NCBI GenBank assembly: GCA_013334825.1
Contig: JAAXWR010000002.1
Location: 155,009-219,008 of the forward strand
Length of the DNA stretch: 64,000 bases
DNA from: Candidatus Yonathbacteria bacterium
GTDB taxonomy: Bacteria; Patescibacteriota; Minisyncoccia; Phycocordibacterales; JACNGX01
Reading direction: 5' to 3'
The notes below the pieces were generated by a model that was not told where the DNA came from, did not search any database, and saw only the letters and a list, made by a program, of their open reading frames with translations. Position numbers and translations under genes: made by a program. Positions within the stretch are counted from its first letter, which is position 1. Every line of letters begins with the position of its first letter. Positions 21,080 to 43,817 of the stretch are shown here, in pieces.

Positions 21080-21150
21080 GCGGAATTAGTTAAGTGGCAT
21101 AACATTAGCTTCCCAAGCTGAGATCGCGGGTCCGATTCCCGCATTCCGCA
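21080..21150 (+). tRNA. tRNA-Gly (anticodon CCC).
   Basis: Manual fold: acceptor GCGGAAT/ATTCCGC, D-stem GTTA/TAAC, anticodon loop UUCCCAA, T-arm GCGGG-TCCGATT-CCCGC. CCA is not encoded. Confidence 0.8.
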
Positions 21151-21478
21151 CAAAGGACGCCCTTCAGGGGCGTCCTTTGTGCGGAATGAGCGAGCAAACT
21201 GCTTTGCTCGCGTTGGGAATCGGACGGCTCGGCGATGTTGTCGCTTGCGACGACCGCGAGCCGCGTCCAGGAGTACTTAGCGGATTGCGAATAAGTGAAG
21301 CAATACGCTTAGTAACTCCGGGACGATTCCCGCATTCCGCACCCAGCCCTACTTTCATAACAAACGCATGTACACTACATGCGTTTGTTATGTGATTATT
21401 AGAAATATATATTATTGAGTGTTTAATGAAAGTAGAGCTGGGTGCGGAATGAGCGAGCAAACTGCTTGATATACATTA
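21151..21478 (+). repeat. Composite element downstream of tRNA-Gly. It contains a terminator hairpin, an inverted copy of the tRNA 3' end split by a CTGC-loop hairpin, an H2 module, a direct copy of the 3' end, a roughly 105-bp CCCAGCC hairpin and a second truncated inverted copy.
   Basis: 21180-21227 reads TGCGGAATG[AGCGAGCAAACTGCTTTGCTCGC]GTTGGGAATCGGACGG. 21319-21341 reads CGGGACGATTCCCGCATTCCGCA. 21342-21447 reads CCCAGCCCTACTTTCAT..ATGAAAGTAGAGCTGGG. The 24-bp string TGCGGAATGAGCGAGCAAACTGCT occurs at both 21180 and 21447. Confidence 0.8.
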
Positions 21479-22633: not shown

Positions 22634-22724
22634 AAAAGGATATAATGCAATGCATTATACCCCGGGGAGGTTCCCTGCGCTAGTGTGACTTTCATATATT
22701 CTGTAAGGACGATATACTTACCTT

Positions 22725-23915
22725 ATGGAAAAAGCACCTCGCCGAAATGAAAAAGCACATGCAGATGAAAACTCATTTTCTAATGGTGTACCTGATAATG
22801 TCCCTGAAGTAACTTCTCTGAAAGGTGGTAAGGAAGGTGGTGATGTAGCTTCTCATGAAAAAGCAAAGCATCTTCTTATGGAGATCGAATCAACGAAAGG
22901 AGTTTCTCCTTCGGGGGGACAAGAGACTTCTGTGTCAGAAAAAAAAGAAGAGCATGAATCTGTCCCCAATCCTTCACGGAGACGTTTTTTGAGACAAGTA
23001 TTTACATATGGAGCAGGAGCGACGATTGTGTCGATTCCATTTTTGGGAAGACTCTTTAATAAGGGTGATGTGGTATCAGAGAAAGATAAAAAGGAAGTGA
23101 ACGATGTAAATCGTCTTGCTCGTGAACTTGATGCTGTTGAGAAAGATGATAGTATTGAGCGACGTGAGCGTTTTATAAAACGAGTGAGAGAGACAGGAGA
23201 ATTCATTGTAAGGGACGAAGATACCATACTTGATACGGATGTGATGGAAGCATTGGAAGAGTATTGGCAAAAACAATTCATGACACGACGTGATGGACGT
23301 GAAGATGTTCCTTTTGCGTGGGAAGATATACTTCTTGCCAGAGAACGTATGCGCCCGTATATGCCGTCTATGCGGAGAGCATTTAAAAATCAAGGACTTT
23401 CTGATGCACTTGTAGGACTCGCTATTGTGGAGTCATGGGGAGATAGGTTTGCGCGCTCTCACGCGGGAGCAAAAGGACTGTATCAGTTTACGGAGAGTAC
23501 TGGGCGTATGTATGGACTTGAAACAGAGGCAGATTTTTTTGATCCTATAACATCATCTCTTGCTGCGGCGAAGTATATTGCCACGATGTATGATGTAAAT
23601 GGGGGGAGTCTTCCACTCGCTCTTCACGAATATAATGGGGGATACGCGCTGGCATATAGAATGAACCACACAGATAAAAAAGCTGACTATGTGGGATTTT
23701 TGAAAGAAATGGAGTATGTTATTAATGAAAAGAGACATGCATTTGGAGATATAGATGAACGGACATTTCTTGAAGAAGTGAAGGACGTTAATGGTTCTTT
23801 GCATGGGCTCTTTGAGAATGTTGTGTATCCTGCAAAAGTATTTGCGGCGGAATACGCGATGAGACAAGCTGATAAAGAAGAATTGGAAAAGGAGACGCTT
23901 CTTGCTCGTCGCTGA
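22725..23915 (+). CDS. Lytic transglycosylase (SLT) domain protein with a twin-arginine-like signal.
   Basis: SRRRFLRQV then a hydrophobic stretch. The SLT core is VESWGDRFARSHAGAKGLYQFTESTG..AAAKYI. Confidence 0.65.
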   Translation: MEKAPRRNEKAHADENSFSNGVPDNVPEVTSLKGGKEGGDVASHEKAKHLLMEIESTKGVSPSGGQETSVSEKKEEHESVPNPSRRRFLRQVFTYGAGATIVSIPFLGRLFNKGDVVSEKDKKEVNDVNRLARELDAVEKDDSIERRERFIKRVRETGEFIVRDEDTILDTDVMEALEEYWQKQFMTRRDGREDVPFAWEDILLARERMRPYMPSMRRAFKNQGLSDALVGLAIVESWGDRFARSHAGAKGLYQFTESTGRMYGLETEADFFDPITSSLAAAKYIATMYDVNGGSLPLALHEYNGGYALAYRMNHTDKKADYVGFLKEMEYVINEKRHAFGDIDERTFLEEVKDVNGSLHGLFENVVYPAKVFAAEYAMRQADKEELEKETLLARR

Positions 23916-24029
23916 TACCCCCATGGGGTATGTTGCGCATCATGTTTCATGTGGTATACTAGAATCTATTAATCGTTTTGGATGATATATCGCATTTGCG
24001 ATATGCCAGCCATAGTTATTTTTTTACAC

Positions 24030-24269
24030 ATGGAACAAAAGACTGTTATTGTATATTCCACGCCAACATGTGCGTTTTGCCACATGGCAAAGGAATATTT
24101 TACTCAGAACAATGTCGCGTTTACCGATCACAATGTCGCGACCGATTTGGAAAAGCGTCAGGAGATGCTTGAACTCACGGGACAGATGGGTGTTCCTGTT
24201 ATCAAAATCGGTGATGATATTGTCATTGGTTTTGATCAAGGACACATTGCTGAATTGCTCGGACTGTAA
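24030..24269 (+). CDS. Glutaredoxin-like protein (NrdH-like).
   Basis: A 79-aa thioredoxin-fold protein carrying a CAFC redox motif and the GVPVIKIGD signature. Confidence 0.75.
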   Translation: MEQKTVIVYSTPTCAFCHMAKEYFTQNNVAFTDHNVATDLEKRQEMLELTGQMGVPVIKIGDDIVIGFDQGHIAELLGL

Positions 24270-24334
24270 TCTTGAGAAAAAATATGCTTTAATGAAAGCG
24301 CCGTATCCTTTTATAGGGTCGGCGCTTTCATCAT

Positions 24335-24406
24335 CCCTTCGTAGCTCAATGGATAGAGCAACTCCGTCCTAAGGAGAAGATGTAGGTTCGACTCCCGCCG
24401 AAGGGA
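24335..24406 (+). tRNA. tRNA-Arg (anticodon CCT).
   Basis: Manual fold: acceptor CCCTTCG/CGAAGGG, D-stem GCTC/GAGC, anticodon loop GUCCUAA, T-loop TTCGACT. There is one mismatch in the anticodon stem and one in the T-stem. Confidence 0.6.
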
Positions 24407-24670
24407 CATATTGAAAAACACCCTTTAGGGTGTTTTTCAATATGTCCCTTCGGAGTAAGCCGACTGCTCGGCTTACGTCGGGAGTCGAACTGAGCACCAC
24501 TTTTGCTGTTGCAAAAGTGGTGCTCGACGTCCAGCGGTACTTATGGAAATGCGAGTGCCCGAAGCATTTCCATTAGTAACCGCGGGACGATTCCTGCCGA
24601 GGGGTTTTTGATTGTGAGCGTATCCCGCGAACCTTTCCGAGCAGTGAGTGTTCCTGCCGAGGGGACAGGC
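24407..24670 (+). repeat. Composite element downstream of tRNA-Arg. It contains a 21-bp-stem hairpin, an inverted 3' copy split by a CTGC-loop hairpin, and H1, H2 and degenerate direct 3' copies.
   Basis: GGGACATATTGAAAAACACCC..GGGTGTTTTTCAATATGTCCC, then TTCGG[AGTAAGCCGACTGCTCGGCTTACGT]CGGGAGTCGAAC. H1 is GAGCACCACTTTTGC..GCAAAAGTGGTGCTC. H2 is GTCCAGCGGTACTTAT..TTAGTAACC followed by GCGGGACGATTCCTGCCGAGGGG. Confidence 0.8.
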
Positions 24671-24823
24671 GAGTTTTAAGTTTATAGTTTCAAGAGCACG
24701 GAAAATATATTTTTTAGTGTTTTTTAACTTATAATTTGAAGTTCACGACTTTTGTAAAATTAAAGAATGAGATATAGTCCATTCTTATTTCCATATACAA
24801 GTATTCATGATACCATATAGTCC

Positions 24824-25174
24824 ATGATGGACATGGAGCTTAAACACAAGCTCGACGAGCTTGAAACAGTTACTCATGAAAATAATGAGATATTGCGTGG
24901 TATACAACGTTCCGCGCGCCTGCAACGCATCTTGTCTATCATTAAATGGGTGATGATTGTCATTTTTGCCATGGCGGGGTATTATGTCCTTCAGCCATTC
25001 GTGGATAGCGCCAGAAAGACGTATGAGGCGCTTCAAAGTGGTGTTATGGAGGTAAAGGAAGTACAGAGCACATTGCCAGATTTGACGCTCTTATTTCAAT
25101 TATTAGGGTCGCAAAAGCCCTCAAAACAAGACGCTGAAAAGAGTGCAGAAATGACAGTGCCTGTTACAGAATAG
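24824..25174 (+). CDS. Hypothetical small membrane protein of 116 aa.
   Basis: ORF with a central hydrophobic helix (IIKWVMIVIFAMAGYYVL). No motif recognised. Confidence 0.35.
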   Translation: MMDMELKHKLDELETVTHENNEILRGIQRSARLQRILSIIKWVMIVIFAMAGYYVLQPFVDSARKTYEALQSGVMEVKEVQSTLPDLTLLFQLLGSQKPSKQDAEKSAEMTVPVTE

Positions 25175-25191
25175 AAGTATCATACCAATTT

Positions 25192-25264
25192 GCCGAGGTA
25201 GCTCAGTTGGTAGAGCATACGCCTGAAGAGCGTGTGGTCGGCGGTTCGAGCCCGCCCCTCGGCA
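25192..25264 (+). tRNA. tRNA-Phe (anticodon GAA).
   Basis: Manual fold: perfect acceptor GCCGAGG/CCTCGGC, D-arm GCTCAGTTGGTAGAGC, anticodon loop CUGAAGA, T-loop TTCGAGC. Confidence 0.9.
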
Positions 25265-25400
25265 CCCAGCCCTACATTCATAATAAACGCATGTACACCA
25301 CGTGCGTTTATTTTGTGATTGTTGCATTTTTACATATTGCCACCTTTCATGAATGTAGGGCTGGGTGCCGAGGGAGGAAGGCAACTGCTTGCCCACAGTT
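25265..25400 (+). repeat. Composite element downstream of tRNA-Phe. It is a roughly 100-bp CCCAGCC hairpin module followed by an inverted acceptor copy and a CTGC-loop hairpin.
   Basis: CCCAGCCCTACATTCATAATAAACGCATGTACACCACGTGCGTTTATT..CATGAATGTAGGGCTGGG, then GTGCCGAGGGAGGAAGGCAACTGCTTGCCC. Confidence 0.8.
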
Positions 25401-25454
25401 TTATTCCTCAGGAATATGTTTGTAGAAATATGAAGATTTATGTAATTTCGAATC

Positions 25455-25492
25455 TGTATTGACAATGTATATACATTGTATATACTTATGAT
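25455..25492 (+). promoter_or_regulatory. Putative promoter and operator of the dinJ-yafQ operon.
   Basis: TTGACA, then the 18-bp perfect palindrome ACAATGTATATACATTGT, then TATACT, about 10 nt ahead of the ATG. Confidence 0.5.
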
Positions 25493-25747
25493 ATGACTAC
25501 GCTTAATATAAGAATTGAAGAAAAAATTAAAGTGAAGGCAAATAAAACATTATCTTCACTTGGGCTTGATATGTCTACGGCAGTTAAGATATTTTTGAAT
25601 CAAGTTATTATAGAAGACGGTTTACCGTTTACCCCTACGAATAATAAACTTATGCTAAAAGAACGTTGGGATAAACAAACTGCTCATGCATTGAAGTATG
25701 GAAAAAATTACAAAAATGGTAAAGATGTATTGTCTGACATAGTGTAA
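25493..25747 (+). CDS. dinJ: Type II antitoxin, DinJ/RelB family.
   Basis: MTTLNIRIEEKIKVKANKTLSSLGLDMSTAVKIFLNQVIIEDGLPF matches the DinJ RHH N-terminus. Confidence 0.8.
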   Translation: MTTLNIRIEEKIKVKANKTLSSLGLDMSTAVKIFLNQVIIEDGLPFTPTNNKLMLKERWDKQTAHALKYGKNYKNGKDVLSDIV

Positions 25748-25758
25748 TATTTTTTTGT

Positions 25759-26040
25759 ATGTATACGATACGTCGTTCAAAAGACTTTGAATTATCTATT
25801 AAACGTCTAAAACATGCAGGGTTAAAGCCGTCAGTAAAACATGATATTGAGTGTGTTATCGATTTGCTTGCTTTAGGGGAAAAGTTACCCGCGAAATATA
25901 GAGATCACAAATTACAAGGAGAACTTTCAGCGTATAGAGAGTGTCATATAAAAGGAGATTTGCTTTTGATTTATATGATAAGAAAAGAGTACATGATATT
26001 GATTCTTGTTGATATCGGTTCTCACGCGCAATTATTTTAA
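25759..26040 (+). CDS. yafQ: Type II toxin, YafQ (RelE/ParE superfamily).
   Basis: DHKLQGELSAYRECHIKGDLLLIY..GSHAQLF matches the YafQ consensus, and it lies immediately downstream of dinJ. Confidence 0.8.
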   Translation: MYTIRRSKDFELSIKRLKHAGLKPSVKHDIECVIDLLALGEKLPAKYRDHKLQGELSAYRECHIKGDLLLIYMIRKEYMILILVDIGSHAQLF

Positions 26041-26149
26041 ATACGAAAATAGTCTCTCTCTATTGAGAGATATTTAGTAAAGTTTCCATACACACACTGG
26101 AGGGCGTAAGCCCTCCAGTGTGTGTATAATTACTTCGTGCTTCCCGTCT

Positions 26150-26240
26150 TGTTTCGTATGTTCCCTAGCACTGTGCATTGTGCACCACGTAGGATGCACA
26201 GCACGCCACGTGGGGTGCAGGGCAATCGTACTATTCGTAC
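26150..26240. repeat. Palindromic element of about 90 bp rich in CACGTGG, copy A (MITE-like).
   Basis: CCCTAGCACTGTGCATTGTGCACCACGTAGGATGCACAGCACGCCACGTGGGGTGCAGGG flanked by GTTTCGTATG / GTACTATTCGTAC. This is the reverse complement of the copies at 39583-39666 and 41563-41652. Confidence 0.75.
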
Positions 26241-26309
26241 TTCGTAACCCTTAATTCTTGCTTCGTGATTCCAGTATCCGTCCCTATCACCCATCACCTC
26301 TCTCCTAAT

Positions 26310-26798
26310 TTAATTCCCCTTTACCTTTACACGAGAGTGTTTATCACGGTCTATTTTAGGCATGCGGATTGTGAGTAGTCCGTTGCGTTCAGTTGCTTCA
26401 GCAGCATCAGGGTCAATTTCTACCGAGAGGGGAATGACACGTGAGAATGAACCCCAATACAGTTCCCGATACATAAAGCCATCATTTTCGATAATACCCG
26501 AATCGTCTTCGCGGGTACCTTTGATGGTTACCTCGTTACGACTGATGGAAACTTCAAGGTCACTCGGATCAACACCCGCAATCATTGATTTGATAACCAA
26601 ATCATCACCTTGTTCATACATATCAACAGTGAGTTCTCCTTCCTCGTCTTCTTCTTCCCACATATCGGCAGCTGTTTCTTCGCGCTCTGTGGGCGATTCG
26701 TCTTCATCAGCGAATATGGTGTCGCGTTCATCTTCATCACGTGGCGTTACCGCGCCTGCGATGCGTCCGAACAGAGATGTGCGTTTTCGTTTCATCAT
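26310..26798 (-). CDS. Hsp20/alpha-crystallin family small heat-shock protein.
   Basis: Alpha-crystallin domain motifs (RELYWGSFSRVIPLSVEIDPD, GLLTIRMPK). Acidic N-terminal region. Confidence 0.85.
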   Translation of the reverse strand: MMKRKRTSLFGRIAGAVTPRDEDERDTIFADEDESPTEREETAADMWEEEDEEGELTVDMYEQGDDLVIKSMIAGVDPSDLEVSISRNEVTIKGTREDDSGIIENDGFMYRELYWGSFSRVIPLSVEIDPDAAEATERNGLLTIRMPKIDRDKHSRVKVKGN

Positions 26799-27493
26799 GA
26801 TGTATGTCGCGACTTGAGTCGCTCAAAAAGAAAGATGATAATAATCGCGCCAATCCAGAGCCATAAAAATATGGCAAACGGATCGGGTCCTGTCTCACTC
26901 ATTATAAAAAAATTAAACGCAGTATGCAAAGCAATTGCTATGCACAGGCCAAAGAGTCCGGCAATTTTTCTCATGAAATCACTTTTCCAAAATGCAAATC
27001 CTATCATTACACCGACCATCGATGACGCAATGACATGCAAGAGTGTTGCGCCCAAGAAGCGCAAGTTCCCAGTGAGGAATGATACCAGTGCTTGTCCACG
27101 TGATATTGGCTCAAGAAGAAAGAGCGTGTTCTCAAGAGCGGCAAAACCGAGCGCGACCGTAATCATGTAGATAAGTGCGTCCACAGGTTCGTCAAAATAA
27201 TCTGATGTTTGAAAAATAATCACGACAATCATCGCGAATTTCATCATTTCTTCGATAGTTGCCCATGCGATAAGGAGATCAAGCCCTTCAAATCCAAGTG
27301 CTGTTGCAAATTGTTCCATTGGATATACAAGCATGACGGCAGCCATACCCGCAAAAAAAGAAAGGATGAGAAGCCCGCGGGGTTCAGGATTGTCGCTGTC
27401 TTCTTTGAGCCAAAACCAAAGCCACAGGAGTGCGGGGAGTACCCCTCCGAGAAGTGCGTAAAAGAGCGATTGTGTAGTGAATGTGTCGGGCAT
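26795..27493 (-). CDS. PrsW-family intramembrane metalloprotease.
   Basis: Polytopic protein with IEEMMKFA (EExxK), FAALENTLF (FxxxENxxY) and an HTAFNF motif. It overlaps hsp20 by 4 nt. Confidence 0.65.
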   Translation of the reverse strand: MPDTFTTQSLFYALLGGVLPALLWLWFWLKEDSDNPEPRGLLILSFFAGMAAVMLVYPMEQFATALGFEGLDLLIAWATIEEMMKFAMIVVIIFQTSDYFDEPVDALIYMITVALGFAALENTLFLLEPISRGQALVSFLTGNLRFLGATLLHVIASSMVGVMIGFAFWKSDFMRKIAGLFGLCIAIALHTAFNFFIMSETGPDPFAIFLWLWIGAIIIIFLFERLKSRHTS

Positions 27494-27503
27494 GCCGAAT
27501 GTA

Positions 27504-29741
27504 TTATGCGCGCGGCCAGCGTTCTACCATGAGAAACCGACGCGCGTCCGGTCCATGGGACATAAGTGACCAAATCTTTTCGGTGATGAAAGGCATGAAG
27601 GGATGGAGGAGTTTGAGTTGTGTCATAAGCATCAGACGAAGTGTATATTGTGCTGAGCGCTTGTCCGTCTCATTGTCGCTTGTGAGGCGTGGTTTTGTTT
27701 CTTCAATCACAATATCAGCGAATGTGTGCCAGAAATAATGATACAGTTTTTCGGCAGCGAGATACAATCGAAACGCTTCAATATCCGCTGTCACATCTAT
27801 CACAAGTGCATCAAGTTCAGATAAACGTGCTGTATCTTTTTCACTTAAAGTGGGAGACAACGTAATGTCAAAGTCCGCGGTTGCTTCCATAACAAAACGC
27901 GATGCATTCCAGATTTTGTTGGCGAATTTTTTGTGGGCTTTGACCTTATCTTCGCCGAGGTTGATGTCATTGCCTGCGGCAGCGCCGATAATGACAGACA
28001 TGCGTGTGGCATCGGCACCATAGGTCGCAATCAAATCGCGTGGGTCCATGGCATTGCCAAGTGATTTACTCATCTTGCGTCCCTTTGCGTCGCGTACAAT
28101 ACCGTGGAGATATACATGTTTGAATGGAATATCGCCGAGCAAATATGTCGTCATGAGAATCATACGCGCAACCCAAAAGAAAATAATATCGTATCCGGTT
28201 TCAAGAACGGTTGTTGGATGATATGTGTTCAAATCGTTTGTTTCTTCGGGCCAGCCAAGTGTGGAAAATGTCCAGAGCCCTGATGAAAACCATGTATCAA
28301 GTGTGTCGGGATCTTGTTCCCAGCCATCTCCTTGGGGTGCACTTGCTCCGACATGGATTTCCTCGTTGCCGTCCATTGTGCGATACCATACTGGGATACG
28401 ATGCCCATACCAAATCTGTCGGCTGATGCACCAATCTTTCAAGTTATCAATCCAGTGCGTATATGTCTTTTCGAAGCGGTCGGGCATGATGTCAATCTGA
28501 CCACTTCCGACGACTGTTTGCATGAGTGTTTTTAGCGTTACCATTTCACCATGTGCGATACCGTTGATAGCATGTCCTTTGAAGGGGAATGCTTTATTTA
28601 CATCAATGAACCACTGTAATTTGGGGAGCGGTTCAACAATTCCTCCTGTGCGTTCGGCGGTTGAAATGTTTTGTTTCATTGATTCTTCTTTTTCAAGAAG
28701 TCCTTCTTCGCGAAGCCATGCGACGATGATATCTCGTGCCTCGGTCGTTTTCTTGCCCGACAAACGTGGTTCATCGACGGTCATTTTGGCATATTCGTTG
28801 ATGACTTGAATCATCGGCAAGTTGTGTCGCTCCTTCATAGCAAAGTCCACCATGGAATGCGCTGGTGTAACACCGACGGCGCCAGTACCATACGCAGGGT
28901 CTACATCCTTGTCCGCAATAACTTGAATATGCAGGGGGACCCCGCAAAATATCACATCGTATGTATTGCCAACGTATGCACTGTATCGTGCGTCATCAGG
29001 ATGAACTGCGACAGCGGTGTCGCCGACTTTTGTTTCAGGACGGGTTGTCGCAATAGGAATAGGGAAGTCTTTACTGTAGCGAAACGTGTAGATAGTCGCG
29101 TCACGTTCTTCATATATAATCTCATCATCAGAAATGGTCGTCTGACCTTTCGGGTCCCAGTTGACGACGCGATATCCACGGTAAATAAGCCCGTCATGAT
29201 ACATGCGTGTAAACGCTTCATTCACTGCGCGTGCGCGTGTGCCATCGAGGGTAAATGCTTCACGACTCCAGTCTACTGACGCGCCGAGCTTGGCAACTTG
29301 ATCAACAATATTGTCGTGACTGTCGTGCGTGAATGCATGGACACGTTCGAGGAATACTTCACGACCAAGGTCATGGCGGTTTTTCTTTTCTGTTTTTACG
29401 ATTTCTTTTTCAACTTTACTTTGGGTGGCGATGGCAGCGTGGTCGGTACCGGGGAGCCAGAGGGTGCGCTTGCCACGCATGCGTTCAAAACGAACAAGAA
29501 TATCTTCAACCGCAAGCATTGCCGCGTGTCCCATGTGCAGGACTCCCGTGACGTTGGGAGGAGGAAGAACGATAGAAAAGGGTTCAGCATCGGAGGAAGT
29601 GACACCTTGTTCAATACAGACATCGGGATTGAATAGTCCACTCTCACGCCACGAAGCATATATGTCAGACTCGGTTGTTGCCGGATTATACGGCTGGAGA
29701 AACTCTTGGGGGATAGAGGGAGATTGTTTGTCTTCAGTCAT
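27504..29741 (-). CDS. valS: Valyl-tRNA synthetase.
   Basis: PPPNVTGVLHMGHA (HIGH motif) and KMSKSLGN (KMSKS motif). The start was reset to ATG 29741, because the upstream 29742-29888 is a CT-rich motif block. Confidence 0.9.
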   Translation of the reverse strand: MTEDKQSPSIPQEFLQPYNPATTESDIYASWRESGLFNPDVCIEQGVTSSDAEPFSIVLPPPNVTGVLHMGHAAMLAVEDILVRFERMRGKRTLWLPGTDHAAIATQSKVEKEIVKTEKKNRHDLGREVFLERVHAFTHDSHDNIVDQVAKLGASVDWSREAFTLDGTRARAVNEAFTRMYHDGLIYRGYRVVNWDPKGQTTISDDEIIYEERDATIYTFRYSKDFPIPIATTRPETKVGDTAVAVHPDDARYSAYVGNTYDVIFCGVPLHIQVIADKDVDPAYGTGAVGVTPAHSMVDFAMKERHNLPMIQVINEYAKMTVDEPRLSGKKTTEARDIIVAWLREEGLLEKEESMKQNISTAERTGGIVEPLPKLQWFIDVNKAFPFKGHAINGIAHGEMVTLKTLMQTVVGSGQIDIMPDRFEKTYTHWIDNLKDWCISRQIWYGHRIPVWYRTMDGNEEIHVGASAPQGDGWEQDPDTLDTWFSSGLWTFSTLGWPEETNDLNTYHPTTVLETGYDIIFFWVARMILMTTYLLGDIPFKHVYLHGIVRDAKGRKMSKSLGNAMDPRDLIATYGADATRMSVIIGAAAGNDINLGEDKVKAHKKFANKIWNASRFVMEATADFDITLSPTLSEKDTARLSELDALVIDVTADIEAFRLYLAAEKLYHYFWHTFADIVIEETKPRLTSDNETDKRSAQYTLRLMLMTQLKLLHPFMPFITEKIWSLMSHGPDARRFLMVERWPRA

Positions 29742-29854
29742 GGGAAAAGTATAGCATAAAGTAGGGGTTAGGTTATAGGGACGGACGGATATAGGAAAGA
29801 GGTTATAGGTGATAGGTACGGACATTGGAATCACGAAGCAAGAATCAAGAAGGA

Positions 29855-29885
<31 letters not shown>

Positions 29886-29920
29886 CAAAAAGCCGCGCTT
29901 GCGCGCGGCCGTGAATGGCG

Positions 29921-30154
29921 TTATTTGTGTCGCATGCTCTCAATGAGCTTTTTTGCGAGCTCAAGCTCCGAGATTGACTCGGGGTACCTGCCCTGCGACA
30001 GGTATATCGACATCCTCGCGTGAATGCAGCCGAGCAGCTGCACAAAGAAAGTTTTGTGTCCATATGGTGCGTTAATAACAATCGCACCACTCGATAATGA
30101 TGACTGCAGATCACTGCATTCATCCATCAACTTTTCAACATCACTATTTTTCAT
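29921..30154 (-). CDS. Hypothetical protein of 77 aa.
   Basis: ORF only. A weak AAAG lies upstream. Confidence 0.3.
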   Translation of the reverse strand: MKNSDVEKLMDECSDLQSSLSSGAIVINAPYGHKTFFVQLLGCIHARMSIYLSQGRYPESISELELAKKLIESMRHK

Positions 30155-30358
30155 TTCTTTATAGATTTTTTATTATTAGATCTAAGTCTTTTCTTATTAT
30201 ATACCAAATAGAATGTTTTGTCAATAGTATGGGAGGTGTGCAATAGAAAATATTATATGAAGCGGGGTTTGGGCGCTACGCGCCCAAACCCCGCAGTGTT
30301 TCCTAGCTTTCTCATCTCCTAACTTACTAACCTTCTGACATACTAACCTTCTAACCTC

Positions 30359-31537
30359 CTAATTTCCTAACTCCAGATTTCCCCACGCTCTTACATCATC
30401 TGGTCTTGCGGTATCACCCCGCATATATCTAAATGTTCCCGCGACACCGATCATGACCGCATTGTCTGTGGTTGCCGCGCGGTCGGAGAGGCGTACAGCA
30501 ACATCAGGCAGTTCCCGCGCGACCGCATCCGCAAGTCTTTTACGGAGTGTGTCGTTCGCCGCCACACCACCACCCATGACTATCGTTCGTGCGCCATATT
30601 CACGTGTTGCGTCGAGCGTCTTTTTTACAAGTACATCGACGACAGCGTCTTGAAACGCATGTGCAAATACGCGCTTTGTCGCATCGTTCATGTTAGGGAT
30701 TTTTTTCGCCGCATAGAGCACTGATGTTTTGATGCCAGAAAATGAAAAATCATAATCACCTGAGCTAATCATCGGACGGGGAAAGACAATATCGTCTTCG
30801 GTTGGTGCAGGGGCTTCTGCGGCGAGACGAGAAATCTCAGGTCCACCCGGATAGGGCAGTCCCAAGACACGCGCAACCTTGTCAAATGCTTCACCTGCCG
30901 CGTCATCGCGCGTTTGCCCCACGAGCTCATAGGAGAACATTTCACGCATAAGACGAAGTTCTGTATGTCCGCCCGAAACGAGAAGTGCGAGAAGAGGCAA
31001 GTCAATCGTGTCTGCACCGATAGTAAATTCATCACCTTGCACAAACGCCGAAAAGATATGTCCCTCCATATGATTGACGGGAATGAGTGGTTTTTCCCAG
31101 AGTTCGGCAAGTGCGCGCGCGAAGTTCACACCAACCCAAAGTGCTGGTTCAAGTCCCGGACCGTGTGTGACGGCAATTGCGTCAATGGCAGGAGACATGA
31201 GTGGCACATGTGCGAGGAATGTATCGGCAAGTTCTGGTTCATGAGAAAAAAGTTCGCGTATGGAGAGGATACGTTCAGGTGGCAACGTGCTTGCGGATAT
31301 ACTGTCCGTATCAATGTGCGCTTCGGATAATGCTTGCAACAGAACAGGAACAAGATTGCGTGCGTGTTCGCGTTTGGCAAGTGTGGGGAAGACACCTCCA
31401 TAGGGTGCATGCAGGTCAATTTGAGAATGGACGACATTGGCGCGAATAATGAATGACGCTTCACCAATACCGCCTTCTGTTTCAAGAATGGCGATTGCCG
31501 TTTCGTCGCAACTTGTTTCGATGGAGAGGATGAGCAT
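30359..31537 (-). CDS. tsaD: tRNA N6-adenosine threonylcarbamoyltransferase (Kae1/TsaD).
   Basis: MLILSIETSCDETAIAIL N-terminus, HMEGH metal-binding motif and VSGGVAAN. Confidence 0.9.
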   Translation of the reverse strand: MLILSIETSCDETAIAILETEGGIGEASFIIRANVVHSQIDLHAPYGGVFPTLAKREHARNLVPVLLQALSEAHIDTDSISASTLPPERILSIRELFSHEPELADTFLAHVPLMSPAIDAIAVTHGPGLEPALWVGVNFARALAELWEKPLIPVNHMEGHIFSAFVQGDEFTIGADTIDLPLLALLVSGGHTELRLMREMFSYELVGQTRDDAAGEAFDKVARVLGLPYPGGPEISRLAAEAPAPTEDDIVFPRPMISSGDYDFSFSGIKTSVLYAAKKIPNMNDATKRVFAHAFQDAVVDVLVKKTLDATREYGARTIVMGGGVAANDTLRKRLADAVARELPDVAVRLSDRAATTDNAVMIGVAGTFRYMRGDTARPDDVRAWGNLELGN

Positions 31538-32818: not shown

Positions 32819-34312
32819 ATGAAACGCATCCTCTTTTTTCTTTTTAGTTTTTTACTTATTCTTTCCACAATCGTTTCAGATGTCTCTGCCGCAACGAGGT
32901 CGCTTTCTCTTGGTATGTCGGGAAGTGATGTGACGGAACTTCAGAGCAAGCTTATTTCTTTGGGGTATCTTGTGTCTGGTAAGAATACAGGATATTTCGG
33001 TCCACTCACCGATACCGCACTCAAAAAGTTTCAGTGTGATAAGAGCATTATTTGCACGAATGCGGCTGTTTCAGGGTATGGTATTTATGGACCAAAGACA
33101 CGCACGAAACTTGTCGCACTTACTTCATCTGTTTCTCTTGGTTCAGGAACGTCATCAAGTACCACATCAACGACAGTATCGTCCGCGCCATGGACGGGCA
33201 AACTTGAGTTTTCGGGGTGGATTCCGTATTGGCGTAAGGAAAAAGGTGTCGAGGATACACTTCCACATCTTTCTCAACTTTCGAGTGTGATGCCATTTGG
33301 TTTTACGATGAAGTCCGATGGTACGCTTGCTGATACTGCAAAAATAAACGAAGAGCCGTGGAAGACGCTTATCGCTGAAGCAAAGAAAAAAGGCGTGCGT
33401 GTTGTTCCAACGGTGATGTGGGGTGATGGCGAAACGATTCACGCGGTGCTTTCGGATGATACGAAGCGTGTTGCACTTGAAGATGAGATTGCAAAACTTG
33501 TGAAGGACAATGGCTTTGATGGTATTGATATTGATTTTGAGGCAAAAAAGCATGAGACGAAAGATTATTTTTCAACCTTCTTGAAAGGTCTCTATCAGCG
33601 TATGGGCAATAAGTGGGTGTATTGCACGGTAGAGGCACGCATGCCCCTGTCGCATCGATATTTGCCCGGGCAGACGATTCCTGCTGATGCCACGGACTAC
33701 GCTAATGACTACGCGGCAATGAACAAATATTGTGACCGTGTGGAAATCATGGCGTATGATCAAGGGTATGTGGACAAGGTGTTAAACAGAGCACGCACTG
33801 CACCGTACGCGCCTGTTGCTGATCCTGCATGGGTAGAAAACTTGGTGGAACTCGCCGCGCAAAGTATCGACAGAAAAAAGATTGTTATCGGTGTGCCGAC
33901 GTATGGATATGAATATTCTGTAACGCCAACATCATCCGGCTCATATCTCTACAAAATGCTCTGGGCGTTTAATTACAAATACGCGACTGATATTGCAAAC
34001 AAACTTGGCATCACACCGACACGCACCAGTGCCAATGAAATCGGATTTTCGTATGACCCAGCGCTTCTTGCTGCCGTTGCGCCAGAAGGAGATGATGTGG
34101 CAGGAACACAACACGCGCTTGCAGGCGCGGAGATTGTCGGTAATGCTGGTGCGACTGTGGATACCAGTAAGCCATTTAACTTCCTCTCATGGAGTGATGC
34201 GCAAGCGATTAAAGACAAAGTAAATCTCGCCAAGAAACTTGGAGTTCGTGGTGTCGCGGTCTTTAAGTTTGATGGGGGAGAGGATATGGGGATGTGGGAG
34301 GTACTGAAGTAA
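32819..34312 (+). CDS. Secreted glycoside hydrolase family 18 protein with an N-terminal peptidoglycan-binding domain.
   Basis: Signal peptide. PG_binding_1-like GMSGSDVTELQSKLISLGYL..GPLTDTALKKFQ. GH18 catalytic DGIDIDFE (DxxDxDxE). Confidence 0.75.
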   Translation: MKRILFFLFSFLLILSTIVSDVSAATRSLSLGMSGSDVTELQSKLISLGYLVSGKNTGYFGPLTDTALKKFQCDKSIICTNAAVSGYGIYGPKTRTKLVALTSSVSLGSGTSSSTTSTTVSSAPWTGKLEFSGWIPYWRKEKGVEDTLPHLSQLSSVMPFGFTMKSDGTLADTAKINEEPWKTLIAEAKKKGVRVVPTVMWGDGETIHAVLSDDTKRVALEDEIAKLVKDNGFDGIDIDFEAKKHETKDYFSTFLKGLYQRMGNKWVYCTVEARMPLSHRYLPGQTIPADATDYANDYAAMNKYCDRVEIMAYDQGYVDKVLNRARTAPYAPVADPAWVENLVELAAQSIDRKKIVIGVPTYGYEYSVTPTSSGSYLYKMLWAFNYKYATDIANKLGITPTRTSANEIGFSYDPALLAAVAPEGDDVAGTQHALAGAEIVGNAGATVDTSKPFNFLSWSDAQAIKDKVNLAKKLGVRGVAVFKFDGGEDMGMWEVLK

Positions 34313-34444
34313 CGAGAAGCAAGAATCAGGAAGTAAGAATCAAGAATACGGACGTACTGGAAAATAGAAATTAGGAAAATGAAATATGAATATAAACAAT
34401 CCGCCGGCTTGCGCCGGCGGACGTGTGTTACAGTAGCCGCAATA

Positions 34445-35488: not shown

Positions 35489-35624
35489 ATAAAACTATGA
35501 TACCATGTCGATTGATTTTTAGGGAGGGATTTGTCCTGGAGTTACTAATTGAAATGTTCTATGTATTCTCATTTTAATAAGTACTCCTGGACGCGGCTCG
35601 CATTTCTCGCGAGCGAGAAATATG

Positions 35625-35714
35625 CTCCGCCGTTCGAATCCCTCCTCGCAGGCAAAGCAGTTTGCCTGCTCTCTCCGCCCAACAAAAATCGCACCCTAAA
35701 GGTGCGGATTTTTG
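35625..35714 (+). repeat. Ser-tRNA-3'-like structured element, copy 3 of 3.
   Basis: CGTTCGAATCCCTCC, then hairpin TCGCAGGCAAAGCAGTTTGCCTGC, then TCTCTCCGCC and CAACAAAAATC, then GCACCCTAAAGGTGC and GGATTTTTG. It is preceded by the palindrome GCATTTCTCGCGAGCGAGAAATATGC. Confidence 0.7.
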
Positions 35715-38349: not shown

Positions 38350-38421
38350 GGCCCTATCGTCTAACGGTTAGGACATCGCCCTTTCACGGCGGTAATCGGG
38401 GTTCGATTCCCCGTAGGGTCA
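38350..38421 (+). tRNA. tRNA-Glu (anticodon TTC).
   Basis: Manual fold: acceptor GGCCCTA/TAGGGTC with one G-U pair, D-arm GTCTAACGGTTAGGAC, anticodon loop CUUUCAC, T-arm CGGGG-TTCGATT-CCCCG. Confidence 0.85.
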
Positions 38422-38819
38422 CAAAACGCCAGCGCCGAAGTATATCTTCGGCGCTGTTGCGTTTTGTAGACCCTACGGGGAATCGAACGGCGCAAGGCGG
38501 TATACAAGATGCGCAAGATTGCGCATGCTTGTCGCTGCGCCGCGTCCAGCGGTACTTATCAGAATGCGAGCATTGGCGAAGCATTATGATTAGTAACCGC
38601 GGGACGATTCCCCGTAGTGCCTTTCGTGAGAATCGAACCGAGCACCACTTTTGCAATGGCAAAAGTGGTGCTCGATGTCCAACAGTATCCAGCCCCACTT
38701 TCATAATAAACACATGTGCTGTGATAGATTTTTTATCCGAGTTATGAGTATTGTTTATGAATGAAGCCTCTCATGAAAGTGGAGCTGGATAACCGTGGGG
38801 ACGATTCCCCGTAGAGTCA
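38422..38819 (+). repeat. Composite element downstream of tRNA-Glu. It contains a long hairpin, a contiguous inverted copy of the tRNA 3' end, a GGCGCAAGGCGGTATACAAG box, H2, a direct 3' copy, H1, a roughly 100-bp CCAGCC hairpin and a second direct 3' copy.
   Basis: 38467-38490 TAGACCCTACGGGGAATCGAACGG is the reverse complement of the tRNA's 3' end. 38599-38621 reads GCGGGACGATTCCCCGTAGTGCC. 38797-38819 reads GGGGACGATTCCCCGTAGAGTCA. The modules align with those of the Gly, Arg and Val loci. Confidence 0.8.
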
Positions 38820-39548: not shown

Positions 39549-39582
39549 GGTGAGTTTCAAGTTTCAAGAATGGTTGTGAATA

Positions 39583-39666
39583 ACGAATATGTACGCCTGC
39601 CCGCATCCTTGTGGCGTGCCATGCACCCTGCGTGGTGCATGGTGCTGGGGAATGTACGAATACGAC
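39583..39666. repeat. Palindromic CACGTGG-rich element, copy B.
   Basis: GCCTGCCCGCATCCTTGTGGCGTGCCATGCACCCTGCGTGGTGCATGGTGCTGGGG flanked by ATATGTACGCC / AATGTACGAATACG. Confidence 0.7.
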
Positions 39667-39826
39667 TTCTTTATTTTTTACCGTTTATAGTTTTCGTCTT
39701 CATATTTCTAATTTCGTATTTCATCTTTCGTATTCTTGATTCCCGTCAATTCCATAATTCATAATTTATATCTATATCAATAAGTCATAAGCTCATACCT
39801 ATAAGCTAATTCCTTATTCCTCACAT

Positions 39827-40324: not shown

Positions 40325-40339
40325 AAAAAGAAATGACGC

Positions 40340-40445
40340 GGATACGATGCGGAACCTACGCGGACGTGATGCTGAACGAACGCGGAAAGTCGCGGAACCT
40401 ACGCGGACACGATGCAGATCAGACGTGGAATGTCGCGGAACGGGA
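40340..40445 (+). repeat. Tandem repeat of about 44 bp, roughly 2.3 copies (GCGGAACCTACGCGGACRYGATGC..).
   Basis: Read directly. A related ACGCAGAAT x3 repeat lies at 41495-41540. Confidence 0.6.
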
Positions 40446-41562
40446 TAAAAAATAGCATGAGGAGATTAAAAATTAGGAGATTACATGTTAAACGATAACA
40501 TACACGACGGATTGCTCTACGAGCAATCCGTCGTGTTGGTATATATAAAAACCGCTCTTGTGAGCGGTTGTGAAAAAAGGTCGCACGGGATGGTACGTGC
40601 GGGAGTTTGCGACCGTCCCATGGTCTTGGTCATGAGTGATGTCTGAAATTGCAGTGGAGCGCATTCAGAAACATATCGGGCGCGCCGTGCGACCTTTGAA
40701 ATCAAAAAAGAACTCATTGGAAATATCTTCTCCGCTTGAGACATGTTCGGACCGTGTCCGGATAACCGATTTCGGTCGCCCCTACTCTCGTAACTGTGCG
40801 CAAGCGGAGAAAGAATCAGCATACGAAATAAGATATTCTTTGCTCAGGATATATTGATAGGGTATGTTTGTCAATGACACGATACAAAAGGAAACCCCGC
40901 CGTTTTGGGCGGGGGGTGCGGGCTAGGGTCAGAGAGACCTTACCGCAATAAAAGAACAATACACTTTCCTTACTTGATATGCCCGTTTTGGGCGTCTCCC
41001 GGCAAGATGGAAATGGGGCCGGTAAGATTTTTCATCGTAAGGTTGAGCGGGTGTATCCGCATCGTGTGCCGTGCCACAGGAAGTGGCGTTTACTGACCTT
41101 ATCCATACGATCCCGTCTGCCTGACGGTCGGATAGATCAGAAAATTGTTGTCCTTGTTCCCTACCTAAAATAAAACAAGGATTTGGAGCTGATAACTCCA
41201 TGTATCCAACGTGACGGGGGATACAAGGACAACTTGGCAATTGCCAACCTCTCTTTGTTACCTTGCCCAAGGGAGAGAGGGTGGAGATAGGCGTTCCAAT
41301 GCCGTGAGTTCCATCGCTAGCTCAAGCCCGAAGGCGAGCGGCGCTCACGGTTTTTTAATGTGGCCATGCGTAATGGCCGCGGACCCCCGTATCCCGCAAT
41401 GAGCCAATGTGGCGTATGGGCGGGAACCTGAGGATGCTAGTATTATATACCAAAACAATTTTTTTGTCAAGCGTTTTTGTATATACGCAGAATCTATGCG
41501 GACACTACGCAGAATGACGCAGAATTTACGCAGAAGAGTTTTCATTTCGTGGAGATTGGTTA

Positions 41563-41652
41563 CGAAGTACGAACTTATACGCTTGCCCTGCACACCACGT
41601 GGCATGCTGTGCATCCTACGTGGTGCACAGTGCTAGGGAACATACGAACACT
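41563..41652. repeat. Palindromic CACGTGG-rich element, copy C.
   Basis: GCCCTGCACACCACGTGGCATGCTGTGCATCCTACGTGGTGCACAGTGCTAGGG flanked by GTACGAAC / CATACGAACA. Confidence 0.75.
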
Positions 41653-41853
41653 ACTGAATACAAATAATCATGTTGGTGAGTTTGTGTTCGTATGTTCGTA
41701 CTCGTTCATACTTCGTAACCCCTCATTCCTGTCCGTCTCTATAAACCTATCACCTCTAACCTCTTTCCTATTTTCGTCCACTCTTATCACCTCTAACCTA
41801 TTTCCTGCCCCCTGCTTCTTGCTTCGTGATTCTCATGTTATGATATTCTCCAT

Positions 41854-43281: not shown

Positions 43282-43407
43282 TACGTGAAGCATGAATCAA
43301 GAAGCAAGAATCAAGGATACGGAAAAGTGACGCTCCGCACCGCCTCTCTGTTTTTTGTGGAACATATTACATCACATTTTTTCTTAAAAAAAGAGGACCG
43401 TCCTTTC

Positions 43408-43500
43408 TGTTCGAGCCCCGTGTCACCACGCAAATACAAACAATCGCAAGGGCATGCCTTGCGATTGTGTATTTGTGGGCGACACAGGACTCGTCCCGCG
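43408..43500 (+). repeat. Direct repeat of about 93 bp, copy 1. It duplicates the downstream hairpin, the inverted T-arm copy and the last 18 nt of tRNA-Val. Copy 2 is at 43676-43768.
   Basis: The two copies are identical over roughly 90 nt (CGTTCGAGCCCCGTGTCACCACGCAAATACAAACAATCGCAAGGGCATGCCTTGCGATTGTGTATTTGTGGGCGACACAGGACTCG). They bracket a CCAGC hairpin module at 43503-43606. Confidence 0.9.
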
Positions 43501-43743
43501 GTTATCCAGCTCCACTTTCATAATAAACACATACGCCATGATAGATTTTTTATCCGAGACGTAGGTATTGTTTATAGATGAAGTCTCTCATGAAAGTGGG
43601 GCTGGATACCGTTGGACGCGGCGCGGCGACAAGCACTCGCGAGTAAACTCGCTCGTCTTGTATACCGCCTTGCGCCGTTCGAGCCCCGTGTCACCACGCA
43701 AATACAAACAATCGCAAGGGCATGCCTTGCGATTGTGTATTTG

Positions 43744-43817
43744 TGGGCGACACAGGACTCGAACCTGTGACCTTCACAATGTCAATGTGACGCTCTAACC
43801 AGCTGAGCTAGCCGCCC
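43744..43817 (-). tRNA. tRNA-Val (anticodon GAC).
   Basis: Manual fold: acceptor GGGCGGC/GTCGCCC, D-arm GCTCAGCTGGTTAGAGC, anticodon stem-loop TCACA-UUGACAU-TGTGA, T-arm ACAGG-TTCGAGT-CCTGT. Confidence 0.9.

What the first reader, a model, noticed from the sequence alone, without database searches (positions are those of the whole stretch)
26150..26240. MITE-like 90-bp palindromic element rich in CACGTGG, three copies, each fused to a CT-rich motif block
Copies at 26150-26240, 39583-39666 and 41563-41652 (the first inverted relative to the other two) share a long imperfect palindrome of the form GCCCTGCACMCCACGTGGCRTGCTGTGCATCCTACGTGGTGCACARTGCTAGGG flanked by GTACGAA / TTCGTAC termini. Each is immediately followed by the pyrimidine-rich block CTTCGTAACCC..CGTCCCTATMACC..TCACCTCTAACC. 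They sit downstream of yafQ (and hsp20, which is convergent), upstream of NUDIX and upstream of proS. This could be a non-autonomous mobile element or a palindromic operator for an unknown regulator.
Basis: seen in the sequence. Interest (0 to 1): 0.5.

Follow-up and report, generated by a model that had tools for sequence, protein, structure and literature searches.

The report
REP-like hairpin repeat in a CPR bacterium
The three copies are real members of a lineage-restricted family of intergenic hairpin repeats in an uncultured Candidatus Yonathbacteria (CPR) genome, whose discrete unit is a 56-nt palindromic core that is gained or lost precisely, with no terminal inverted repeats and no target duplication, which makes it more like REP/BIME-type repeats than a classical MITE or an operator.

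Summary
**Observation.** Three homologous copies exist (26142-26249 on the minus strand, 39571-39667 and 41557-41659 on the plus strand). A 29-nt core pattern hits 3 times against 0 expected by chance.

**Source and spread.** The window comes from a Candidatus Yonathbacteria MAG (CPR/Patescibacteria). The core pattern is absent from 185,579 reference genomes, viral contigs, phages and plasmids. It occurs at least 17 times on 9 metagenome contigs, often in head-to-tail arrays.

**Boundaries need revising.**
- The discrete unit is a 55-64-nt palindromic core (CYTGCCCYGCA...GCTRGGG).
- The core sits inside TACGAA-rich host modules, here called A and B.
- These modules also occur without the core, with the identical junction TACG^AAYATACGAA.
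- The TACGAA "termini" are direct repeats, not inverted ones. There is no target-site duplication.
- The CT-rich block is a separate repeat family and is not fused to the element.

**Other properties.**
- The core folds as a long hairpin: 97% of pair cells are paired and three pairs covary.
- It lies mostly 18-145 nt downstream of a stop codon, in sense orientation.
- Copy number differs between orthologous strains.
- The orthologous copy diverges at least as fast as the neighbouring genes.

**Best reading.** This is a new REP/BIME- or PATE-like interspersed palindromic repeat. It is probably selfish or neutral, and may have a side effect as a 3'-UTR hairpin. Its mobilising enzyme was not identified. 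It is not an operator and not a classical MITE.

The parts
26142..26249 (-). Copy c1: host module A plus core. It lies 60 nt downstream of the hsp20 stop codon, in sense with hsp20, between convergent yafQ and hsp20.
   Evidence: nhmmer 98 bits; CM 82 bits; alignments; Pfam neighbours.
26163..26226 (-). Palindromic core of c1, 64 nt. It carries a 7-nt internal tandem duplication (TGCACAA).
   Evidence: Regex extraction bounded by TACG^ and ^AACATACGAA; fold -28.4 kcal/mol.
39571..39667 (+). Copy c2: host module B plus core. It starts 23 nt downstream of a 73-aa ORF and lies 160 nt upstream of the NUDIX gene.
   Evidence: nhmmer 97 bits; CM 92 bits; 94-96% identical to B-type copies on L003, L004, L005, L008 and L009.
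39596..39650 (+). Palindromic core of c2, 55 nt, B subtype. P2 hairpin is GTGCCATGCACC-CTGCGT-GGTGCATGGTGC.
41557..41659 (+). Copy c3: host module A plus core, 195 nt upstream of proS.
   Evidence: nhmmer 111 bits; CM 95 bits.
41582..41638 (+). Palindromic core of c3, 57 nt. P2 hairpin at 41604-41633 with loop CTACGT.
41685..41721 (-). Core-less copy of host module A, inverted relative to c3 (GGGTTACGAAGTATGAACGAGTACG^AACATACGAACAC). With c3 it forms a 162-bp inverted doublet.
   Evidence: the same doublet occurs on L002 447-614.
26250..26310 (+). CT-rich block next to c1. It is a separate repeat family and is not part of the element.
   Evidence: the repeat finder families D2/D5/D12/I3, 8 or more copies in the window.
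41711..41835 (+). CT-rich blocks (two units) upstream of proS. Same separate family.
   Evidence: D2, D5, D12, I4.
26090..26125 (.). Perfect 16-bp hairpin between yafQ and hsp20, conserved in L009. It is probably the shared terminator, which would place c1 inside the hsp20 3' UTR (inference).
   Evidence: Sequence; conserved in the L009 alignment.

Best explanation
The three sites belong to a lineage-restricted family of interspersed extragenic palindromic repeats. The family is REP/BIME-like with nested modules, and the host is a Candidatus Yonathbacteria (CPR) genome.

**Anatomy.**
- The unit is a 55-64-nt imperfect palindrome: stem P1 CCCY/RGGG plus GCA/TGC, and a 12-bp stem P2 with loop CTACGT.
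- The palindrome itself is built from 2-3 copies of a roughly 21-nt GTGG-containing sub-repeat.
- This core sits at one fixed position (TACG^AAYATACGAA) inside TACGAA-rich host modules A and B.
- These modules are strung together with other short modules (GA/CT block, T-rich tail) into mosaic intergenic arrays.

**What is shown.**
- The family changes in three ways: duplication and recombination of module-plus-core units, slippage between the internal 21-nt repeats, and precise gain or loss of the whole core with no flanking repeat.

**What is inferred.**
- The precise, scarless, hairpin-bounded indel next to an invariant TACG is best explained by a hairpin-specific single-strand DNA process. 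The model is the HUH/Y1 enzymes that move IS200/IS605 derivatives and REP/REPIN elements.
- The elements are probably selfish or neutral.
- Because most copies lie just after stop codons in sense orientation, they are probably transcribed into 3' UTRs, where the hairpin may incidentally stabilise or punctuate mRNA.
For: **Real, multi-copy and lineage-restricted.**
- 3 hits in the window against 0 expected.
- 0 hits in 185,579 species genomes, in viral contigs, and in phages or plasmids.
- 9 metagenome contigs carry at least 17 distinct copies, with head-to-tail arrays such as L003 2065-2576 and 5622-5851 and L009 4648-5022.

**The core is a discrete unit.**
- A clean 56-nt indel lies inside a 440-bp composite whose aligned positions are otherwise about 95% identical, L003 5590-6030 versus L008 12048-12432.
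- Core-less A and B modules with the identical junction occur at 10 or more places.
- A core-less and a full A module sit side by side on L007.
- All 14 cores are preceded by TACG.

**Strain polymorphism.**
- L009 is orthologous to window 22716-30490 at 87-96% identity.
- It has A'-B-tail-A where the window has a single A.

**Internal slippage variants.**
- L009a carries a deletion between CCTACGTGG repeats.
- L003c and L007 carry a three-unit expansion, and c1 and L009c a 7-nt duplication.

**Hairpin structure.**
- 97.3% of pair cells are paired.
- Three pairs show double changes.
- Shifting the register drops pairing to 26-51%.

**Young and old copies coexist.**
- Four distinct B cores are 56/56 identical while their flanks differ.
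- The orthologous c1/L009c core is 84% identical, against 92-94% for hsp20 and yafQ.

**Position.**
- All copies are intergenic.
- 7 of the 8 loci where it can be judged have the element 18-145 nt downstream of a stop codon in sense orientation.
- 4 of 10 loci lie between convergent genes.

**No known RNA family.**
- No Rfam match even at E<=10.
Against: - No transposase, RAYT or IS200-like gene was found in the window or the loci (Pfam).
- The direction of the core indel (insertion or excision) is not resolved.
- The second base of the core and its CTRGGG end correlate with the flank type. This favours co-duplication of core and flank plus occasional deletion over repeated independent insertion.
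- Strand asymmetry of folding is weak: the sense strand is more stable in only 6 of 10 cores.
- The copy number per genome is unknown. At 3 copies per 64 kb it may be far below that of classical REPs.
Confidence: 0.62

Rival explanations
1. A cis-acting or small RNA element: the hairpin is a selected RNA structure, such as a 3'-UTR stabiliser, a processing site or a terminator, or a family of small-RNA genes arranged in tandem. Under this reading it is not selfish DNA.
For: - Three covarying pairs, and 4 invariant or near-invariant G.U pairs that would be C.A mismatches on the other strand.
- Sense orientation downstream of stop codons at 7 of 8 judgeable loci.
- On L006 the P2 hairpin directly follows, and overlaps, the 3' end of a tRNA-Arg gene.
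- B-type cores are identical while their flanks vary.
Against: - There is no T-run after the hairpin on either strand and no promoter-like module (sequences).
- There is no Rfam family match.
- Copy number at one orthologous locus differs between strains, 1 versus 3.
- The orthologous core has diverged more than the neighbouring genes and folds worse, -21.6 versus -28.4 kcal/mol.
- One array (L003 2065-2576) is antisense to both of its neighbouring genes.
- The covariation reflects few events, essentially the differences between subfamilies.
Confidence: 0.17
2. A classical MITE moved by a DDE transposase. The unit would be the roughly 162-bp inverted doublet at 41560-41721, bounded by 17-nt GGTTACGAAGTACGAAC arms.
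For: - c3 together with the inverted core-less module forms a doublet with inverted 17-nt and 14-nt arms.
- The same doublet recurs at an unrelated locus, L002 447-614.
- The L003/L008 composite also ends in inverted A and B modules.
Against: - There is no target-site duplication at c3 or L002: flanks are AGATT/CCTCA and GAATG/CAATT.
- c1 and c2 are solo units without an inverted partner.
- No transposase was seen.
- The polymorphisms actually observed concern the core or tandem units, not the doublet.
Confidence: 0.07
3. A palindromic operator: binding sites (CACGTGG half-sites) for an unknown transcription factor that regulates proS, NUDIX and hsp20.
For: The sequence is palindromic with repeated (C)ACGTGG. 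Copies c2 and c3 lie upstream of genes.
Against: - CACGTG is replaced by CTTGTG in the B subtype. Only GTGG is near-invariant.
- Positions are mostly downstream of genes or between convergent genes.
- The element forms arrays of 2-5 units.
- It shows precise presence/absence.
- The orthologous copy diverges quickly.
Confidence: 0.04

Closest known systems
REP sequences and BIMEs (bacterial interspersed mosaic elements) of Enterobacteria and Pseudomonas; REPINs with their RAYT transposases (Bertels & Rainey 2011, PMC3116915)
   Same: - Extragenic imperfect palindromes. The minimal form here is 26-28 nt (L009a, L010: CCCTGCACC-CTACGT-GGTGCTAGGG).
- Clustered with other short motifs into mosaic arrays.
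- A hairpin that can form in single-stranded DNA or in RNA.
- A GTGG tetranucleotide just 5' of the main stem.
- Located at gene 3' ends.
- Inverted doublets are present (c3, L002).
- Scarless excision-like polymorphism, as reported for REPINs (PMC3116915).
   Different: - The host is a CPR bacterium, and no RAYT was identified.
- The arrays are mostly direct (head-to-tail) rather than alternating inverted.
- The core is nested at one fixed site of another repeat.
- The core is built from 21-nt direct sub-repeats.
- There is no sequence similarity to any known REP.
- The copy number per genome is unknown.
PATEs and other non-autonomous derivatives of IS200/IS605 elements (peel-and-paste transposition by the Y1 HUH enzyme TnpA)
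   Same: - No terminal inverted repeats and no target duplication.
- Hairpin-forming.
- Always located 3' of one conserved tetranucleotide (TACG in 14 of 14 copies).
- Precise, scarless presence/absence.
   Different: - At 56 nt it is much shorter than typical PATEs, and separate left-end and right-end hairpins are not evident.
- No tnpA or tnpB gene was found in the sequence available.
- The correlation between core ends and flank type argues against free re-insertion.
Modular small repeats: BOX (boxA/B/C) and RUP of Streptococcus pneumoniae, Correia/NEMIS of Neisseria, ERIC, and the cyanobacterial STRR heptamers and small dispersed repeats (from my own knowledge; SDR is cited in PMC3116915)
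   Same: - Modular, nested, intergenic and co-transcribed repeats.
- The heptamer-like TACGAAN and GAAKCAA runs around the core recall STRRs.
- Insertion of one small repeat inside another recalls the small dispersed repeats.
   Different: - Correia and RUP elements have terminal inverted repeats and TA or other target duplications. This element has neither.
- There is no sequence similarity.
- The host phylum is different.

Membership tests
MITE (classical, DDE-transposase dependent) | Terminal inverted repeats at the element ends | tested here: not met
   Both flanks carry TACGAA in direct orientation. Only the larger c3 and L002 doublet has inverted arms.
MITE (classical, DDE-transposase dependent) | Target-site duplication flanking the insertion | tested here: not met
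   The filled-versus-empty comparison of L003 and L008 gives TACG^core^AATATACGAA, with at most a 1-nt (G) ambiguity. The same junction occurs in 10 or more core-less modules. The c3 and L002 doublets have no duplication either.
MITE (classical, DDE-transposase dependent) | An autonomous partner element with matching ends in the same genome | not testable with these tools
   No transposase domain was found in 48 ORFs scanned from the window and loci. The rest of the MAG could not be read.
REP / BIME | Short imperfect palindrome, extragenic, repeated | tested here: met
   Consensus hairpin with 97% of pair cells paired. All copies lie outside credible genes. There are 3 copies in the window and at least 17 on 9 contigs.
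REP / BIME | Occurs in mosaic clusters with other conserved short motifs | tested here: met
   Composites of GA/CT block, A, B, tail and inverted core-less modules recur at unrelated loci.
REP / BIME | Hundreds of copies per genome | not testable with these tools
   Only 64 kb of the source genome is available, and the pattern is absent from the reference-genome collection.
REP/REPIN-RAYT system | A single-copy RAYT (Y1 HUH) gene flanked by the repeats | not testable with these tools
   Not found in the window or loci.
REP/REPIN-RAYT system | Conserved GT[A/G]G head 5' of the hairpin; inverted REP doublets as the mobile unit | tested here: inconclusive
   GTGG is near-invariant 1 nt 5' of P2, but a 4-mer is weak evidence. 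Inverted doublets exist at c3 and L002, while most arrays are direct.
IS200/IS605-derived non-autonomous element (PATE) | Insertion 3' of a specific tetra- or pentanucleotide, without duplication, with hairpin ends | tested here: inconclusive
   TACG precedes all 14 cores and there is no duplication. However, the direction of the indel is unresolved and the core ends co-vary with the flank type.
Any Rfam RNA family | Covariance-model match | tested here: not met
   Nothing reached the gathering score, E<=1 or E<=10 apart from generic hairpin (miRNA-precursor) noise.
CRISPR / TIGR-type guide arrays | Conserved repeats alternating with variable spacers | tested here: not met
   Tandem units abut without variable segments, and the junctions are the same at different loci.

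The most novel reading that the evidence does not exclude
The 56-nt core may be an actively mobile hairpin cassette in a CPR bacterium. It would insert site-specifically and without a scar at TACG^AAYATACGAA inside another repeat. The mover would be either a RAYT/TnpA-like HUH enzyme, making this the first REPIN-like system described in Patescibacteria, or a mechanism not yet described. It would be driving the unusually fast turnover of intergenic DNA seen between strains.
Probability: 0.2. Interest if true: 0.55.

Novelty: new member of a known kind. Interest (0 to 1): 0.36.

Why it matters
CPR/Patescibacteria genomes are regarded as small and streamlined. A Yonathbacteria genome whose intergenic regions are mosaics of nested, rapidly turning-over repeats is therefore mildly unexpected.

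- It shows that REP/BIME-style selfish or structural DNA also exists in these episymbiotic lineages.
- The repeats fragment short-read assemblies. The Logan contigs of this organism break at them, which matters for the quality of CPR MAGs.
- The clean core-plus and core-minus pairs give a concrete way to look for hairpin-specific excision or insertion in metagenomic reads.

Tried and rejected
1. **Census in reference genomes.** The core pattern gave 0 hits in genome contigs, so neither the source genome nor a close relative carrying the element is in that collection. Viral contigs, phages and plasmids also gave nothing.
2. **Widening the census through spurious ORFs.** I searched the protein collection with the 130-aa ORF that runs through the L003 array. 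There were no hits.
3. **Walking along the source contig.** The look-up of encoding contigs returned only short Logan contigs that end at the repeats.
4. **More distant copies.** nhmmer and a covariance model were run over 80 proS loci of other CPR and other bacteria. None were found.
5. **Known RNA family.** Rejected.
6. **Transposase or RAYT near the copies.** None among the 48 ORFs scanned.
7. **Strand asymmetry of folding as evidence for an RNA role.** Weak: sense is more stable in 6 of 10 cores.
8. **TIGR- or CRISPR-like guide array.** Rejected because the arrays have no variable spacers.
9. **Resemblance of GTGGTGCATGGT to a 16S rRNA segment (from memory).** Not supported by any Rfam hit, so dropped.

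Full report
**1. The observation**

Reading the three sites and aligning them shows three homologous stretches.
- Copy c1 is at 26142-26249, on the minus strand relative to the other two.
- Copy c2 is at 39571-39667 and copy c3 at 41557-41659.
- A 29-nt degenerate core pattern matches exactly these three places. Dinucleotide shuffles give 0.00 expected matches.
- Pfam confirms the neighbours. c1 lies between RelB/YafQ (25493-26040, +) and Hsp20 (26310-26798, -). c2 lies between a 73-aa ORF and a NUDIX gene. c3 lies upstream of an archaeal-type ProRS.

The repeat is therefore real and is not a chance match.

**2. Source and distribution**

Exact protein look-ups place the window in a MAG named Candidatus Yonathbacteria bacterium, on a contig of 388,826 bp. 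This is a CPR/Patescibacteria organism.
- The gene content of the window fits this: aminoacyl-tRNA synthetases, LepA, MurJ, class II RNR and MreB.
- The closest ProRS loci among 185,579 species genomes are only 69% identical.

The core pattern has a narrow distribution.
- It is absent from those reference genomes, from viral contigs, and from phage and plasmid records.
- It occurs on 9 JGI metagenome contigs.
- nhmmer finds at least 17 distinct copies on those contigs. Many stand head-to-tail: L003 2065-2576 has 4-5 units, L003 5622-5851 has 2, and L009 4648-5022 has 3.
- Neither nhmmer nor a covariance model finds copies around proS in 80 other lineages, or additional copies in the window.

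**3. Anatomy, and why the boundaries change**

Aligning all copies shows two flank types.
- Module A: GGGTTACGAAGTACGAACTTATACG | core | AACATACGAAACGGGACG.
- Module B: AACATACGAATAACGAATRTRTACG | core | AATATACGAATGAC.

In both modules the TACGAA hexamers on the two sides are direct repeats, not inverted ones.

Both modules also occur without the palindrome, and the junction is always the same, TACG^AAYATACGAA.
- Core-less A modules: window 41685-41721 (-), L002 447-481, L007 2679-2712, 4209-4242, 5470-5500 and 5571-5605, and L009 1011-1044.
- Core-less B modules: L008 12198-12260, L007 about 4167, L003 about 5999 and L008 about 12401.

The clearest case is a 440-bp composite present at two unrelated loci.
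- The loci are L003 5590-6030 and L008 12048-12432.
- Their aligned positions are about 95% identical, apart from one clean 56-nt indel that removes exactly the B core.
- There is no flanking direct repeat beyond a single ambiguous G.

On L007 a core-less A module and a full A module stand side by side.

The discrete unit is therefore the 55-64-nt core (CYTGCCCYGCA...GCTRGGG) and not the 90-nt stretch. In the window the cores are at 26163-26226, 39596-39650 and 41582-41638. It has neither terminal inverted repeats nor a target-site duplication.

**4. Internal structure of the core**

RNAalifold gives P1 (CCCY-G/T-RGGG plus GCA/TGC) and a 12-bp P2 with hexaloop CTACGT.
- On 11 distinct sequences, 97.3% of pair cells are standard pairs.
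- Three pairs show double changes (UA/CG, CG/UA, AU/GC).
- Sliding the pairing register drops pairing to 26-51%.
- The covariation mostly separates subfamilies, so it reflects few independent events.
- Several invariant G.U pairs favour the sense strand. The energy asymmetry is nevertheless weak: sense is more stable in 6 of 10 cores.

The core is itself made of roughly 21-nt direct sub-repeats, each containing GTGG.
- L009a has lost one sub-repeat between CCTACGTGG repeats. This leaves a 28-nt minimal palindrome, which is also seen on L010.
- L003c and L007 have gained one sub-repeat.
- c1 and L009c carry a 7-nt duplication.

These are ordinary slippage events. They contrast with the whole-core indel, which has no flanking repeat.

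**5. Dynamics**

L009 is orthologous to window 22716-30490 at 87-96% identity.
- Between hsp20 and yafQ, L009 carries A'-B-tail-A where the window has only one A unit, c1.
- The neighbouring tsaD-leuS spacer is unalignable between the two strains and differs in length, 577 versus 1000 nt.
- The orthologous cores are 84% identical (54 of 64). hsp20 is 93.5% identical, yafQ 92.2%, and the immediate flanks 93-100%.
- The L009 core also folds less well than c1.

By contrast, four distinct B cores on L003, L008 and L009 are 56/56 identical while their flanks differ. Old decaying copies alongside identical young or homogenised copies is the pattern expected of repeated selfish DNA or of concerted evolution. 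It is not the pattern expected of a conserved operator.

Two observations count against free re-insertion of the core.
- The second base of the core and its CTRGGG end correlate with the flank type.
- One copy, L003b, is an A/B recombinant.

Much of the spread is therefore by duplication or recombination of module-plus-core units. The direction of the core indel remains open.

**6. Position**

All copies lie outside credible genes. The ORFs that overlap them are created by the repeats themselves.
- At 7 of the 8 loci that can be judged, the element lies 18-145 nt downstream of a stop codon in sense orientation.
- These are hsp20 (c1 and its ortholog on L009), the 73-aa ORF (c2), L002, L003 cluster 2, L007 (ychF) and L008a.
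- Four of ten loci lie between convergent genes.
- One array, L003 2065-2576, is antisense to both of its neighbours.
- At c1 a perfect 16-bp hairpin (26090-26125) lies beyond the element. It is conserved in L009 and is probably the shared terminator. This places the element in the hsp20 3' UTR (inference).
- No T-run follows the core hairpin on either strand, so it is not a canonical intrinsic terminator.

**7. The CT-rich block**

This is a separate repeat family.
- It has 8 or more copies in the window (families D2/D5/D12/I3), mostly just upstream of start codons in sense orientation.
- It touches the 5' end of c1 but lies beyond the 3' end of c3, because the element is inverted while the block is not.
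- c2 lacks it.

'Fused' is therefore not correct. The two families are neighbours in a mosaic.

**8. Interpretation**

The data fit a new family of REP/BIME-like interspersed palindromic repeats. The family has a nested architecture: a hairpin core sits inside TACGAA-rich modules, which sit inside mosaic arrays.

The scarless, hairpin-bounded indel next to an invariant TACG resembles what HUH/Y1 enzymes do with IS200/IS605 derivatives and REPINs (PMC3116915 describes REPIN excision and the RAYT link). No such enzyme was found in the roughly 110 kb that I could read. This step is therefore an inference.

Rival readings and my confidence in each:
- A selected RNA hairpin or small RNA: 0.17.
- A classical MITE formed by the c3-type inverted doublet: 0.07.
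- An operator: 0.04.

Membership in the MITE class fails on both terminal inverted repeats and target duplication. Membership in REP/RAYT cannot be decided without the full genome.

**9. Novelty and score**

No paper in the searchable library describes such repeats in Yonathbacteria, Parcubacteria or CPR.
- I rate it a new member of a known kind, namely extragenic palindromic or mosaic repeats.
- The finding is modestly interesting because CPR genomes are thought to be streamlined, and because the core-plus and core-minus pairs make the mobility directly testable in reads.
- Interest score: 0.36.

Noticed in passing
window 40500-41450: About 950 nt directly upstream of c3 have no Pfam hit for any ORF and no Rfam hit even at E<=10. 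The stretch is GC-rich and strongly structured on both strands (z = -4.5 and -5.0 for 40860-41450). It could be an undescribed structured RNA or a hairpin-repeat mosaic.
   Followed up: partly
window 21135-21197, 24388-24463, 25256-25374, 38409-38482, 43688-43753: At least five of the seven tRNA genes in the window are followed by a long inverted repeat whose first arm includes the tRNA's own 3' end. One example is the 26-nt perfect arms at tRNA-Phe, 25256-25281 and 25349-25374. On L006 a tRNA-Arg 3' end overlaps the P2 hairpin of the element studied here.
   Followed up: partly
window 21157-21460, 24385-24600, 35526-35700, 38536-38800, 43409-43640; also 1523-1686 = 3520-3683: A second family of 100-200-nt repeats is linked to tRNA genes and contains tRNA 3'-half-like pieces (TTCGAATCCC..., GTTCGAGCCCC...CACCA). 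It includes an 85-nt perfect duplicate, 43409-43493 = 43677-43761, that carries the tRNA-Val 3' end. L009 has an extra copy next to tRNA-Phe that the window lacks.
   Followed up: no
L007 15-1115 and 1218-2264: A CRISPR array with a 25-nt repeat (GCCTTTTCCCCTCCTACATTCGGAG) and unusually short 17-18-nt spacers, at least 25 units long, next to a cas1 gene. This geometry is typical of CasY/Cas12d systems of CPR bacteria (that comparison is from memory).
   Followed up: partly
window 8256-8289, 29792-29849 (-), 41736-41806, 58606-58684, 62607-62702: The CT-rich block GTCCCTATAACC.ATCACCTCTAACCTCTTTCCT recurs immediately upstream of start codons in sense orientation. The genes checked (proS, NUDIX) have no Shine-Dalgarno sequence. 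The block resembles the anti-SD end of 16S rRNA (from memory). It may be a leader or promoter module.
   Followed up: no
window 40327-40434, 41480-41535; 29828-29871, 34309-34352, 43280-43323, 46804-46856: Heptamer-like short tandem repeats fill intergenic DNA (ACGCGGA/ACGCAGA-type units, and GAATCAA/GAAGCAA units). They are reminiscent of cyanobacterial STRR sequences.
   Followed up: no
window 29832-30408 versus L009 83-1082: The tsaD-leuS intergenic spacer is completely different, and nearly twice as long, in a strain whose flanking genes are 85-93% identical. Intergenic DNA turns over very fast here.
   Followed up: partly
window 60088-60867: Seven or more tandem 84-bp (28-aa) repeats lie inside the 838-aa ORF at 60010-62526, which has no clear Pfam family.
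   Followed up: no
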